A stretch of DNA of 64,000 nucleotides, from contig MFRM01000003.1 in the NCBI GenBank assembly GCA_001784555.1, forward strand, positions 188,615 to 252,614. The letters run 5' to 3'. Under the pieces are notes generated by a model, which worked only from the letters and a program-made list of their open reading frames with translations, had not been told where the DNA came from and did not search any database. This DNA is from Candidatus Melainabacteria bacterium RIFCSPHIGHO2_02_FULL_34_12 (GTDB taxonomy: Bacteria > Cyanobacteriota > Vampirovibrionia > 2-02-FULL-35-15). Positions 17,832-62,110 of this stretch are shown piece after piece (the first letter of the stretch is position 1; each line of letters begins with the position of its first letter). The position numbers and the translations under genes were made by a program.

Positions 17832-17860
17832 GTAGGGGCGTATGGCCATACGCCCCTACT
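17831..17860. repeat. GTAG-type REP palindrome (AGTAGGGGCGTATGG|CCATACGCCCCTACT)
   Basis: Perfect 30-nt palindrome abutting the stop codon of paralogue 1, followed by GGGTTTTG. May also act as a terminator. Confidence 0.85.
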
Positions 17861-36315: not shown

Positions 36316-37311
36316 TTACTTTCCGAAAAGTTTTTTCAATTCTTCTTTTAAGATTGGCACTACTTTAAATAAATCATCTACAATTCCATAGTCACATTTT
36401 TTAAATATCGGGGCATTTGGGTCCTTGTTTATGGCTACAATAACTTTTGAGCTGCCCATACCTGCAAAATGTTGAATAGCACCTGAAATTCCACAGGCTA
36501 TATATAACTGTGGTGAAACAGTCTTCCCCGTCTGACCTACCTGCATGCTATGTGGAGCATAGCCTGAATCTACTGCAGCCCGCGAAGCTCCTACTGCTGC
36601 ACCAATAATTTCTGCAGTTTCAAACAAAATCTTATAGCTATCCCAGTTCCCCATAGCTCGCCCGCCTGAAATAACAATAGGTGCCTCAGTAAGAGAGGTT
36701 TCCTTACTCTTTGATTTAACCAGTTCTTTTATTTTTTGTTTTAATGCTGCTTGATCAATATTTACAGCTTCAGTTATTACTTCCGAGATTTTTGGCTCTA
36801 CATTTTGGGGCATAAGTGTATTTGGTCTGAAAGTTACAAGTTTTGGTCTATGTTCTTCATTAAATTTTAGCTTTGCAATGACTTTATTTGAATACATTGT
36901 TTTAGTGATCAAAAGACTTGTACCTTCAAGCTTTACATCAGTACAATCCATTACTAACCCGCTACTGGTATGGAATGAAGCAGCAGGAAAAAGATCCTGA
37001 GAATATAAAGAATTAACTCCAAATAAAAAATCCGGGTTTTGATCTTTTACAATTTTTATAAAGATCTTCATATAAACATCAGAATTATATGCTTCAAGAC
37101 TTTTATCATTTGCAAGAATAATTTTTTCTACGCCGCATAAACCAAGCTGTCCTTGAATCTTTGCAGAGTCAAGATTTGCACCAATTATTAAAGCAGCGAC
37201 TTTACCTTTTAAATCATCAGCTATATTTCGTGCTGTCATCAAAACCTGTTTTGAAGGCTTTGTTATATCACCATCTTGGTTATTTTCAGCCAGGACTAAA
37301 ATATTTACCAT
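36316..37311 (-). CDS. etfA: Electron transfer flavoprotein alpha subunit
   Basis: 331 aa. 'VISGGRAMG', 'GASRAAVDSGYAPHSMQVGQTGKTVSPQLYIACGISGAIQHFAGM', 'IVAINKDPNAPIF'. Confidence 0.9.
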   Translation of the reverse strand: MVNILVLAENNQDGDITKPSKQVLMTARNIADDLKGKVAALIIGANLDSAKIQGQLGLCGVEKIILANDKSLEAYNSDVYMKIFIKIVKDQNPDFLFGVNSLYSQDLFPAASFHTSSGLVMDCTDVKLEGTSLLITKTMYSNKVIAKLKFNEEHRPKLVTFRPNTLMPQNVEPKISEVITEAVNIDQAALKQKIKELVKSKSKETSLTEAPIVISGGRAMGNWDSYKILFETAEIIGAAVGASRAAVDSGYAPHSMQVGQTGKTVSPQLYIACGISGAIQHFAGMGSSKVIVAINKDPNAPIFKKCDYGIVDDLFKVVPILKEELKKLFGK

Positions 37312-37479
37312 AACATGATTATCCTATACAATAAAGAAATGACCGGTATGGAAATTGGAATTATTGTAACAGTAGGAGTAATAATAGTAAATCTCTTAAT
37401 TTTTTCATTCCTGCCAATAGGAATAAAAAAGATCATGAGTAGGGGCAAATCCAAGTGTTTGCCCAAATAAAAAAGTGTA

Positions 37480-38280
37480 ATGAATATTATAGTAATAATC
37501 CGACAAACTCCCGACACTGAAACCAAAATTAAAATTGGTTCCCAGCCAAATAAAATTGATCCGACTGGAATTACATGGATCATAAATCCATACGATGAAT
37601 TTGCAATTGAAAAAGCACTTAAGATTAAAGAACAAATAGGCACAGATGGTGTAGAGACACACTGCAGTGTGTCTCTATTAGCATGCGGTCCTCAAAGAAC
37701 TGAAGAATCCATACGCCAGGGGCTTGCTATGGGTGCAGACAGAGCAGTCTTTATAAAAGATGATTCTTTAGAATATGCAGATCCTTACGTAATTTCAAAG
37801 CTATTAGCTTCTGAACTTAAAAACATGCAGTATGATTTATTGCTCTCAGGTAAAAAATTAATTGATATTGAATCAAGTCAAATTCCTATATTTATAGCAG
37901 AAGAGCTTGGTTTAACACATGTAAGTTTTGTGATGAAGTTTACTGGAATTGATGCAGCAAATAAAAAAATTACTTGTGATCGTGAAGCTGAAGGTTCTCA
38001 TGAAATAATTGAGGTTTCTCTTCCAGCACTTATTACATGTGACCGAGGAGAAGATTTCCCGCGTTATGCATCAATAACAGGCATCATGAAGGCAAAAAAG
38101 AAAGAAATCAAAGAAATAACGGTATCAAAAGAAGAAATAGAAAAATTTGGACAAAGAACTGAAATTGTAAGTTTTGATCTGCCACTTAGTAGAAAAGAAG
38201 CAAAAATATTTGAGGGCGAAATACCAGAAAAAGTATCTGCACTTGTAAAAGCCCTTCGCGAGGAAGCTAAGGTCATCTGA
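37480..38280 (+). CDS. etfB: Electron transfer flavoprotein beta subunit
   Basis: 266 aa. 'MNIIVIIRQTPDTETKIKI', 'INPYDEFAIEKALKIKE', 'LAMGADRAVFI'. Transcribed divergently from etfA. Confidence 0.9.
   Translation: MNIIVIIRQTPDTETKIKIGSQPNKIDPTGITWIINPYDEFAIEKALKIKEQIGTDGVETHCSVSLLACGPQRTEESIRQGLAMGADRAVFIKDDSLEYADPYVISKLLASELKNMQYDLLLSGKKLIDIESSQIPIFIAEELGLTHVSFVMKFTGIDAANKKITCDREAEGSHEIIEVSLPALITCDRGEDFPRYASITGIMKAKKKEIKEITVSKEEIEKFGQRTEIVSFDLPLSRKEAKIFEGEIPEKVSALVKALREEAKVI
37652..37677. repeat. Perfect 26-nt palindrome inside etfB (TAGAGACACACTG|CAGTGTGTCTCTA)
   Basis: Encodes about 'VETHCSVSL'. Its arms match the palindrome inside the RAYT gene (GTAGAGACA...TGTCTCTAC). Confidence 0.9.
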
Positions 38281-49668: not shown

Positions 49669-49696
49669 GTAGGGGCGTATTGCAATACGCCCCTAC
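49669..49696. repeat. GTAG-type REP palindrome (GTAGGGGCGTATTG|CAATACGCCCCTAC)
   Basis: Perfect 28-nt palindrome, 12 nt after the pyrK stop. Same arms as 17831..17860. Confidence 0.85.
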
Positions 49697-61591: not shown

Positions 61592-62110
61592 TTAATGCAT
61601 TAATGCATTGTTGATTATATATTTTCGTTTGATATTTAATTCATTTTCATTGCGAATGATGCGTTCATAAAATCGGGATTGCCATGCGAAATGGGTGAAA
61701 CCGTTTTCACGACATTGGCGCGTTACCGCAGATTTAAAATGATTAACAATCATTGATAATGATTGTGATATTGGTTTTGAAAATCGATTGTGTTTTGCCC
61801 GTAGAGACATGCCGCGGCATGTCTCTACAAGGTTACGATCAATAAAAATAATCCCATGAAAATGGTCCGGCATTATTATCCATTCGTCTAATTTGACATA
61901 TTTTCGAATTTGTTCTGTTTTAATCCATTCGTTTGCAACAATTCCCCCAATTCCCGATAAATGTATTTTTCCATTAACAATTTTGCAAAAAAAATGTTCA
62001 CGATTTTTTGTACAAATGGTTATAAAATAGGCCCCATTTGTTCTGTAATCCCAATGTTTTAAACGAATTGATGGGATTCTATATTTGTCATTAAATAAAT
62101 TATCCGACAT
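61592..62110 (-). CDS. REP-associated tyrosine transposase (RAYT) / IS200-like Y1 transposase
   Basis: 172 aa. 'GAYFITICT', HUH motif 'MPDHFHGIIFI', and C-terminal 'WQSRFYERIIRNE...YIINNA' carrying the catalytic Tyr region. Confidence 0.85.
   Translation of the reverse strand: MSDNLFNDKYRIPSIRLKHWDYRTNGAYFITICTKNREHFFCKIVNGKIHLSGIGGIVANEWIKTEQIRKYVKLDEWIIMPDHFHGIIFIDRNLVETCRGMSLRAKHNRFSKPISQSLSMIVNHFKSAVTRQCRENGFTHFAWQSRFYERIIRNENELNIKRKYIINNALMH
61801..61828. repeat. Perfect 28-nt GTAG palindrome inside the RAYT gene (GTAGAGACATGCCG|CGGCATGTCTCTAC)
   Basis: Encodes 'VETCRGMSL' on the minus strand. Confidence 0.9.

What the first reader, a model, noticed from the sequence alone, without database searches (positions are those of the whole stretch)
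37652..37677. REP-type palindrome inserted in-frame inside the essential etfB gene
A perfect 26-nt palindrome (TAGAGACACACTG|CAGTGTGTCTCTA) lies within etfB and is translated as about 'VETHCSVSL'.

The segment between 'KIKE' and 'CGP' is about 7-8 residues longer than in EtfB sequences I remember (for example '..RLKEKGQAEEIIAVSIG..'). The arms (GTAGAGACA / TGTCTCTAC) are the same as in the palindrome inside the RAYT gene, which is translated 'VETCRGMSL'.

This resembles Rickettsia palindromic elements, which colonise ORFs without destroying them.
Basis: partly seen in the sequence, partly recalled or inferred. Interest (0 to 1): 0.62.

Follow-up and report, generated by a model that had tools for sequence, protein, structure and literature searches.

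The report
In-frame REP hairpin inside etfB
A 26-base DNA palindrome inside the etfB gene of a Melainabacterium is a copy of a known small repeat (a "double-foot" REP, the kind tied to RAYT transposases) that adds six amino acids to a loop of an otherwise intact protein; this is a known phenomenon, and the only unusual point is that the same variant sits at the same codon in three lineages that are not each other's closest relatives.

Summary
A perfect 26-nt palindrome, TAGAGACACACTG|CAGTGTGTCTCTA, lies at 37652-37677 inside an intact etfB ORF and is translated as VETHCSVSL. Nine same-family orthologues, five outgroups and PDB ETF-beta chains are six residues (18 nt) shorter at this point, so it is a derived in-frame insertion.

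It belongs to a family GTAGRGRC-N8-13-GYCYCTAC. The family has 78 strict copies in this 2.1-Mb genome, 0-66 in the other genomes of the family, and 0-1 in other families of the class. These are the "double-foot" REPs described for TnpA_REP subclass 2.4 (RAYT group 4). The window's RAYT has that subclass's motifs and carries its own in-frame REP. Intragenic REPs are also already published.

In an AlphaFold model the insert lengthens the loop between helix 2 and strand 3. Its 3' arm re-codes the start of strand 3 (VSL where orthologues have VIL).

One point goes beyond the known picture. The same, otherwise unique, variant sits at the same codon in three lineages that are not sisters, with lineage-typical flanks. 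Recurrent site-directed insertion fits this better than inheritance followed by losses, but it is unproven.

"Essential" is not supported, and the Rickettsia element analogy is only loose. Verdict: real, and a new member of a known kind.

The parts
37651..37677 (+). Double-foot REP copy inside etfB: GTAGAGACACACTGCAGTGTGTCTCTA. These are codons 58-66, VETHCSVSL. The perfect palindrome is 37652-37677. The 5' foot GTAG is intact; the 3' foot reads CTAT instead of CTAC.
   Evidence: As RNA the region folds at -21.2 kcal/mol, z = -3.1.
37654..37671 (+). Approximate position of the net 18-nt (6-codon) gain relative to empty orthologous sites (GGT GAA GTA ATT CTA TTA). The exact boundaries are ambiguous, because the element overlays about 9 nt of host sequence (GTN ATT YTA).
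   Evidence: Protein alignment A1 and DNA alignment A2.
37480..38280 (+). etfB (electron transfer flavoprotein beta subunit), intact, 266 aa.
   Evidence: Pfam ETF 2.8e-32. PDB ETF-beta chains match at 1e-32. AF2 model pLDDT 82, with TM about 0.8 to 1efv_B, 1o96 and 9a4x_A.
36316..37311 (-). etfA (ETF alpha subunit), transcribed divergently from etfB.
   Evidence: Pfam ETF_alpha 2.9e-32 plus ETF 9.6e-26.
37439..37464 (+). A second, single-foot REP hairpin, GTAG-GGGCAAA-TCCAAGTG-TTTGCCC, ending 15 nt upstream of the etfB ATG. It belongs to an 11-locus family.
61592..62110 (-). RAYT / TnpA_REP-like Y1 (HUH) transposase gene, 172 aa, with motifs DHFH, WQ and YIINNAL.
   Evidence: Pfam Y1_Tnp 26 bits (cut-off 23). 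NCBIfam REP_Tyr_transpos 64 bits (cut-off 80, not reached). The family profile hits only 4ER8, the E. coli TnpA_REP, in the PDB. The motifs are those of subclass 2.4.
61801..61828 (.). Perfect 28-nt double-foot REP, GTAGAGACATGCCGCGGCATGTCTCTAC, in frame inside the RAYT gene (VETCRGMSL), between the HuH and Tyr motifs.
17832..17859 (.). Intergenic family copy GTAGGGGCGTATGGCCATACGCCCCTAC.
49669..49696 (.). Intergenic family copy GTAGGGGCGTATTGCAATACGCCCCTAC.

Best explanation
The palindrome is one copy of a genome-wide 'double-foot' REP family: 5' GTAG, a GC-rich stem of about 10 bp, and 3' CTAC. This is the substrate type of RAYT/TnpA_REP transposases of subclass 2.4 (Bertels group 4).

The copy became installed in etfB and survived because the outcome is in frame. 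The TAG-containing frame is avoided, and the net gain is 18 nt. It also lies where the fold tolerates it. Its first five or six codons lengthen the loop between helix 2 and strand 3. Its last three codons (VSL) substitute for the ancestral VIL at the start of strand 3, at the end of the strand far from the conserved CGP turn.

Shown here: the sequence, the insertion polarity, family membership, the association with RAYT genes, and the structural position in a model.

Inferred: that a RAYT moved it by acting on the single-stranded hairpin with GTAG as guide, that the insert is neutral or nearly neutral for ETF, and that integration overlays host bases resembling the element's feet (a Val GTN codon on the left, a Leu YTA codon on the right).
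For: 1. The insert is derived. Nine of 11 same-family orthologues, five outgroup genomes and PDB ETF-beta chains lack the six residues.

2. It belongs to a repeat family. There are 78 strict copies in G000 and 0-66 in the other family genomes (62 and 66 in two of them). Other families of the class have 0-1, and the reversed-pattern control gives 0.

3. The family tracks RAYT genes. RAYT hits against REP counts over 12 genomes give Spearman 0.74, p = 0.006. All 16 RAYT homologues carry a REP-coded peptide after the HuH motif, which is the published feature of subclass 2.4 (PMC6006769).

4. The family behaves like REPs. Copies are enriched outside genes: 46% lie in the 10% of the genome that is non-coding. 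Several copies supply the TAG stop codon of a gene. Another 42 copies lie in frame inside genes such as enolase, dapA, hom, uvrC, recN and purL.

5. In the structure model, helix 37-55 is followed by loop 56-62 and strand 63-70. Mean pLDDT is 68 for residues 51-60 and 93 for residues 61-70.

6. The copy is independently assembled in two other lineages.
Against: The RAYT scores below the NCBIfam cut-off (64 against 80 bits) and has no flanking REPs within 1.2 kb.

The etfB copy has only one intact foot.

The net gain (18 nt) is smaller than the element (27-28 nt), which a simple cut-and-paste of a whole REP does not explain.

The element is better conserved between lineages than its flanks: 0 of 7 identical-residue codons differ synonymously, against 50% elsewhere (P about 0.008). 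This could mean the hairpin is under selection rather than neutral.
Confidence: 0.8

Rival explanations
1. The hairpin is kept by selection for a function of its own inside etfB. It could act at the RNA level (pausing, processing or stabilising the mRNA) or at the DNA level (a RAYT or gyrase-type binding site). On this reading it is not a neutral passenger.
For: The element is 25/27 nt identical between G000 and G006, against 73.5% in the rest of the gene. Zero of 7 identical-residue codons differ synonymously, against 99 of 197 elsewhere (P = 0.0075). Pairing is perfect in G000 and in the metagenome allele L092. The stem is stable, at -21 kcal/mol.
Against: Nine family members and all outgroups do without it. 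The G006 copy has two arm-breaking substitutions. The same family sits in dozens of unrelated genes and loops. High identity is equally expected if the three copies are younger than the host lineages.
Confidence: 0.12
2. The insertion happened once in a common ancestor, was inherited vertically, and was later lost precisely in most lineages.
For: The inner stem ACACTGCAGTGT occurs only at etfB in the 12 family genomes. Y1 transposases of the related IS200/IS605 family excise precisely (established knowledge). Other REP sites in this family, such as uvrC site 1, appear to be as old as the family.
Against: A 5-protein tree puts G006 inside the (G006, G010, G011) clade with 100/100 support and G000 outside it. 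This reading therefore needs at least 3-4 independent losses. Every empty site encodes V-(I/V)-L, whereas removing 18 nt from any filled allele leaves V-S-L. The left junctions differ: GAT GGT in G000 against GGN GAA in G006 and L092. The same variant exists elsewhere in intergenic DNA of other organisms.
Confidence: 0.15
3. The filled allele spread between lineages by homologous recombination of a short etfB patch after DNA uptake.
For: The distribution is patchy and the element is near-identical across lineages. The flanks of G006 and L092 are conserved enough (1 difference in the 12 nt upstream) that a very short tract cannot be excluded.
Against: Identity between G000 and G006 in the 21 nt on either side is 11/21 and 13/21, no higher than with any other genome. 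G006's flanks match its own relatives at 18-20 of 21. G000's left flank is unlike every other allele.
Confidence: 0.15
4. The palindrome is an assembly artefact, or a native segment of this EtfB.
For: None beyond the fact that palindromes can arise from chimeric reads.
Against: The same insert is present in three independently assembled lineages plus a second metagenome copy of the G006 type. Orthologues and solved structures lack the segment.
Confidence: 0.01

Closest known systems
'Double-foot' REP sequences of TnpA_REP subclass 2.4 (RAYT group 4 of Bertels), Quentin et al. 2018, PMC6006769
   Same: The element has 5' GT[AG]G and 3' C[TC]AC feet on a long GC-rich stem. The RAYT has HuH N/DH[IFV]H, WQ and YIxNN motifs. 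REPs are inserted in frame inside the tnpA_REP gene between HuH and Tyr. The host phylum neighbourhood matches, since the subclass is abundant in Cyanobacteria.
   Different: The host is a Melainabacteria family that the paper did not sample. More than half of the strict copies (42 of 78) lie inside ORFs. The etfB copy has lost the last base of its 3' foot.
Intragenic GTAG/CGTC REPs (Di Nocera, De Gregorio & Rocco 2013, PMC3733652), e.g. in Opitutus terrae, and the short rickettsial RPE-4/RPE-6
   Same: Short tagged palindromes are translated in frame in housekeeping genes, including DNA-repair genes. Sub-families show compensatory stem variation. Some copies overlap the ends of ORFs.
   Different: Most REPs in that survey are intergenic. 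Here single 27-29-nt units, not dimers, are the rule inside genes, and etfB is not among the genes that the passages I read name as carrying REPs.
Rickettsia palindromic elements (RPE-1 type)
   Same: They are selfish palindromic DNA that colonises ORFs without destroying them, and they add peptide segments at tolerated positions.
   Different: RPE-1 is a much longer element (about 100-150 bp, from my own knowledge) and is not known to be associated with a RAYT. The element here is 26-28 nt with GTAG feet. The resemblance lies in the outcome only.
E. coli / S. maltophilia REP-TnpA_REP systems (4ER8; Corneloup et al. 2021, PMC8266576)
   Same: A HUH/Y1 enzyme recognises a GTAG-footed hairpin in single-stranded DNA. 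GTAG acts as a guide for cleavage at CT or CA dinucleotides. CT dinucleotides are present in the 3' arm here (GTCTCTA).
   Different: Those systems are groups 2 and 3, with single-foot REPs that are extragenic. No biochemistry exists for group 4 / subclass 2.4.

Membership tests
Double-foot GTAG REP (cognate of TnpA_REP subclass 2.4) | 5' GT[AG]G tetranucleotide at the foot of the hairpin | tested here: met
   GTAG at 37651-37654 immediately precedes the stem.
Double-foot GTAG REP (cognate of TnpA_REP subclass 2.4) | Reverse-complement foot C[TC]AC at the 3' end | tested here: inconclusive
   The window copy ends CTAT (3 of 4 bases). The orthologous copies in G006 and in metagenome contig L092 end CTAC. 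All 78 strict genome copies have both feet.
Double-foot GTAG REP (cognate of TnpA_REP subclass 2.4) | GC-rich, (near-)perfect stem-loop, present in many dispersed copies | tested here: met
   The palindrome is 13+13 nt and perfect. There are 78 strict and 82 loose copies in 2.1 Mb of 34% GC DNA.
Double-foot GTAG REP (cognate of TnpA_REP subclass 2.4) | Co-occurrence with a subclass 2.4 tnpA_REP gene (HuH NH[IFV]H, WQ, YIxNNP) that itself carries an in-frame REP | tested here: met
   The window RAYT has DHFH, WQ and YIINNAL; family homologues have NHxH and YIxNNP. All 16 carry a REP-coded peptide after HuH. The only PDB hit is 4ER8. The NCBIfam score, 64 bits, is below the 80-bit cut-off.
Double-foot GTAG REP (cognate of TnpA_REP subclass 2.4) | Binding, cleavage or mobilisation by the cognate RAYT | not testable with these tools
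   Needs a cleavage/strand-transfer assay.
Rickettsia palindromic elements (RPE-1 type) | Element of roughly 100-150 bp with a long imperfect palindrome | tested here: not met
   The element is 26-28 nt and the net gain is 18 nt. The RPE size is from my own knowledge.
Rickettsia palindromic elements (RPE-1 type) | In-frame insertion in ORFs that stay intact | tested here: met
   The etfB ORF is intact, with all family-invariant residues kept.
Electron transfer flavoprotein beta subunit (host gene) | ETF domain and ETF-beta fold, with a partner alpha subunit | tested here: met
   Pfam ETF 2.8e-32, and an adjacent etfA with the ETF_alpha domain. Foldseek gives TM 0.77-0.81 to 1efv_B, 1o96 and 9a4x_A.

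The most novel reading that the evidence does not exclude
Group-4 RAYTs may install double-foot REPs by a sequence-directed exchange at host 'pseudo-feet': a Val GTN codon and a Leu YTA codon a few bases apart. The element would overlay 6-12 host bases, and the same REP variant could be installed repeatedly at the same codon of orthologous genes in separate lineages.

The etfB site would be a natural record of such targeted, frame-preserving integration. It holds an identical variant in three lineages that are not sisters, with lineage-typical flanks.
Probability: 0.22. Interest if true: 0.6.

Novelty: new member of a known kind. Interest (0 to 1): 0.3.

Why it matters
The finding adds a clean, well-delimited example of a REP hairpin translated inside a core redox protein, with empty and filled alleles in close relatives. 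It sits in a lineage, the Melainabacteria, where over half of the strict copies lie inside ORFs.

The etfB site is a convenient natural experiment on two questions. First, how do RAYT-type elements enter coding DNA without breaking frames? Relevant observations are a net gain smaller than the element and boundaries that overlay a Val and a Leu codon. Second, are such insertions recurrent and site-directed?

It also carries a caution for annotation and protein modelling in these genomes. Short peptides of the VE..SL, xRD..ST and GEVTSPL types in loops are repeat-derived, not functional motifs.

Tried and rejected
- The repeat finder (inverted) did not report the palindrome because its arms abut; a script found it.
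- Host-templated origin of the inner stem: the empty-site sequence has no match to ACACTG/CAGTGT, so this was rejected.
- A recombination tract around the insert: flank identities between G000 and G006 are no higher than background.
- Slippage deletion between direct repeats: the only repeat in the G006 allele (GCAG) is 13 nt apart, which is out of frame, so this was rejected as a route to the empty sites.
- A master copy within the family: the 12-mer inner stem is absent elsewhere in all 12 genomes, although collection scans found it in other organisms.
- REPs flanking the window's RAYT (a REPtron layout): none within 1.2 kb apart from the internal one.
Cross-genome work was therefore done through the alignment tools.

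Full report
**Observation**

Window 37652-37677 reads TAGAGACACACTGCAGTGTGTCTCTA, a perfect 13+13-nt palindrome. The preceding G gives a GTAG start. The following base is T, so the 28-nt version is imperfect at its last position.

The palindrome lies in the ORF 37480-38280 (+), 266 aa. This ORF matches Pfam ETF at 2.8e-32 and PDB ETF-beta chains at about 1e-32. Codons 58-66 read VETHCSVSL.

The window holds four perfect palindromes of 20 nt or more. All begin with (G)TAG[AG]G. The mean in 200 Markov-1 simulated windows is 0.15. As RNA the region folds at -21.2 kcal/mol, z = -3.1.

**It is an insertion**

I took etfB from 10 other genomes of the same family and from five genomes of other families in the class and aligned them.

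- Nine family members and all outgroups read ...NAGE-VILLACGP...
- The window genome (G000) reads ...GTDG-VETHCS-VSLLACGP...
- G006 reads ...NAGE-AEIHCS-VSLLACGP...

The difference is exactly 18 nt. At the DNA level:

- Empty sites: GGT GAA GTA ATT CTA TTA
- G000: GAT GGT GTA GAG ACA CAC TGC AGT GTG TCT CTA TTA
- G006: GGT GAA GCA GAG ATA CAC TGC AGT GTG TCT CTA CTG

HMMER alignments to 4KPU_B and 1EFP_B show the same gap.

**Structural position**

An AlphaFold2 model built on the 16-sequence alignment has mean pLDDT 82. It superposes on solved ETF-beta chains with TM 0.77-0.81.

The model has helix 37-55, a loop at 56-62 and strand 63-70. Mean pLDDT is 68 for residues 51-60 and 93 for residues 61-70.

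The first five or six REP-coded residues therefore lengthen the loop between helix 2 and strand 3. The last three (V64, S65, L66) occupy the positions of the ancestral V-I-L at the start of a core strand. That strand ends in the invariant CGP turn. From memory, this turn contacts AMP in human ETF-beta; I did not test this here. The insert is at the opposite end of the strand from that turn.

**The repeat family**

The pattern GTAGRGRC-N8-13-GYCYCTAC occurs as follows:

| Genomes | Copies |
|---|---|
| G000 (2.11 Mb, 34% GC) | 78 |
| Two other genomes of the family | 62 and 66 |
| G006 | 19 |
| Remaining family genomes | 0-13 |
| 19 genomes of other families in the class | 0-1 |
| Reversed-pattern control, all genomes | 0 |

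Inner stems fall into sub-families that differ mostly by transitions with compensating changes.

With a crude ORF-based gene call (90% coding), 42 of the 78 strict copies lie wholly inside ORFs. The family is therefore enriched outside genes, as REPs are. Several copies provide the TAG stop codon of one gene, or of two convergent genes.

Dozens of copies nevertheless sit in frame in housekeeping genes: enolase, dapA, hom, gltX, uvrC, recN, purL, lysS, trpA and trpC. Only the two frames that avoid TAG are used, giving V-E/G-...-S/P-L or x-R-D/G-...-S-T.

**Link to RAYT**

The ORF 61592-62110 (-) passes the Pfam Y1_Tnp cut-off (26 against 23 bits). It scores 64 bits against NCBIfam REP_Tyr_transpos, below the 80-bit cut-off. 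A profile of the family's 16 homologues hits only 4ER8, the E. coli TnpA_REP, in the PDB.

All 16 homologues carry a REP-coded peptide straight after the HuH motif. Examples are VETCRGMSL, VGTYHGMSL, RDGVTPSL and VGANQCVCP.

Quentin et al. 2018 (PMC6006769) describe exactly this for TnpA_REP subclass 2.4 (Bertels group 4):

- HuH motif NH[IFV]H, plus WQ and YIxNNP
- 'double-foot' REPs with 5' GT[AG]G and 3' C[TC]AC
- REPs inserted in frame in the tnpA_REP gene between HuH and Y

Across the 12 family genomes, RAYT hits and REP counts correlate (Spearman 0.74, p = 0.006). Intragenic GTAG/CGTC REPs in housekeeping and repair genes were described by Di Nocera et al. 2013 (PMC3733652). The kind of element is therefore known.

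**History of the etfB copy**

- *Where the variant occurs.* The inner stem ACACTGCAGTGT occurs only at etfB in the 12 family genomes. Collection scans found a third filled allele on metagenome contig OBEQ012356896.1. It reads GGA GAA GTAGAGACACACTGCAGTGTGTCTCTAC TT, a perfect 28-mer, and its EtfB is 83% identical to G000 and 81% to G006. A second copy of the G006-type allele was also found. The same variant occurs in intergenic DNA, or as tandem half-unit arrays, in other organisms. G006 is 'Candidatus Melainabacteria bacterium RIFCSPLOWO2_02_FULL_35_15'.
- *Tree.* A 5-protein tree (about 1,960 columns) places G006 inside the (G006, G010, G011) clade with 100/100 support, and G000 outside it. 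G010 and G011 have empty sites.
- *Conservation.* Between G000 and G006 the element is 25/27 nt identical. None of its 7 identical-residue codons differs synonymously, while 99 of 197 do so elsewhere in the gene (P = 0.0075).
- *Flanks.* The 21 nt on either side are no more alike than in any other pair (11/21 and 13/21). G006's flanks match its own relatives at 18-20 of 21.
- *Empty sites.* Removing 18 nt from any filled allele leaves V-S-L, whereas every empty site has V-I/V-L.
- *Junctions.* The left junction is GAT GGT in G000 but GGN GAA in the other two filled alleles.

Single gain followed by several exact losses is therefore unlikely. A recombination tract is not visible. Recurrent installation of the same variant at a preferred site is the reading I favour, at roughly 0.4-0.5 among the historical scenarios. 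It is not proven.

**Other sites**

- Enolase: G000 alone carries an element, +21 nt, at a site where relatives already read GTA GAG CTA.
- dapA: G000, G008 and G001 carry decaying copies of one variant, +15 or +18 nt.
- hom: G000, G010, G004 and G008 carry four different variants in the same loop, so hot spots exist.
- uvrC: three sites in G000. One is occupied across most of the family with co-varying arms, and one is +18 nt in G000 only.

In all five delimited cases the net gain (15-21 nt) is smaller than the element (27-28 nt). In four of the five delimited cases (etfB, enolase, dapA, hom) the element's terminal CTA overlays a host Leu codon; uvrC site 3 was delimited at the protein level only, where the element's last residue is Leu and Leu residues follow it. 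In etfB and enolase its GTA overlays a host Val codon. Alignment placement in loops is partly arbitrary, so I treat this as a lead rather than a rule.

'Essential' is unsupported. G008, which is 96% complete, has no etfB match at all, and G000 has a second, 29%-identical ETF-beta-like gene. The analogy with RPE-1-type Rickettsia elements is loose.

**Limits**

There is no biochemistry for group-4 RAYTs. Gene calls are ORF-based. The family has only 12 genomes in the collection searched.

**Verdict**

The finding is real and correctly recognised as a REP-type in-frame insertion. It is a new member of a known kind. The one open question of moderate interest is how the same variant came to sit at the same codon in three lineages.

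Noticed in passing
window 37439-37464: A second REP family, single-foot: GTA[GA]-GGGCAAA-N8-TTTGCCC, at 11 loci in the genome. One copy ends 15 nt upstream of the etfB ATG. Another lies about 20 nt upstream of the enolase start (C9:10245). One is in frame inside the RAYT paralogue at C12:3910-4371, coding a VGA..CVCP-type peptide.
   Followed up: partly
window 36316-38280: etfA (-) and etfB (+) are transcribed divergently across a 168-nt spacer, rather than lying in the usual co-directional etfBA operon. The spacer holds a possible 43-aa hydrophobic ORF (about 37340-37471) that overlaps the single-foot REP.
   Followed up: no
G000 C3:46135-47220 and C8:2528-2570; loci L093 (1-120, 6519-6636) and L095 (4000-4060): Tandem arrays of half-elements (15-16-nt units such as GCAGTGTGTCTCTAC or GCAGCAAGTCTCTAC) abut a full palindrome. 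In one G000 gene they are translated as LLQQVST repeats. This suggests repeated cleavage and rejoining, or slippage, at the centre of the hairpin.
   Followed up: no
G000 C5:66354, C16:15242, C7:77957, C15:25328 (outside the window): REP copies supply the TAG stop codon of the upstream gene. At two sites they supply the stop codons of both convergent genes, one on each strand.
   Followed up: partly
hom gene loop: G000 C5:112422; loci L084 (G010), L085 (G004), L082 (G008): Four different REP variants occupy the same loop of homoserine dehydrogenase in four genomes. This points to an insertion hot spot or to in-place exchange of variants.
   Followed up: partly
G000 C3:133997-134423 (outside the window): A RAYT paralogue is split into two pieces (residues 3-93 and 117-170 of the query), apparently broken at the position where the other paralogues carry their internal REP.
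   Followed up: no
Genome search result for G008: One 96%-complete genome of the family has no etfB match at all, so ETF is dispensable in at least one member of the family.
   Followed up: no
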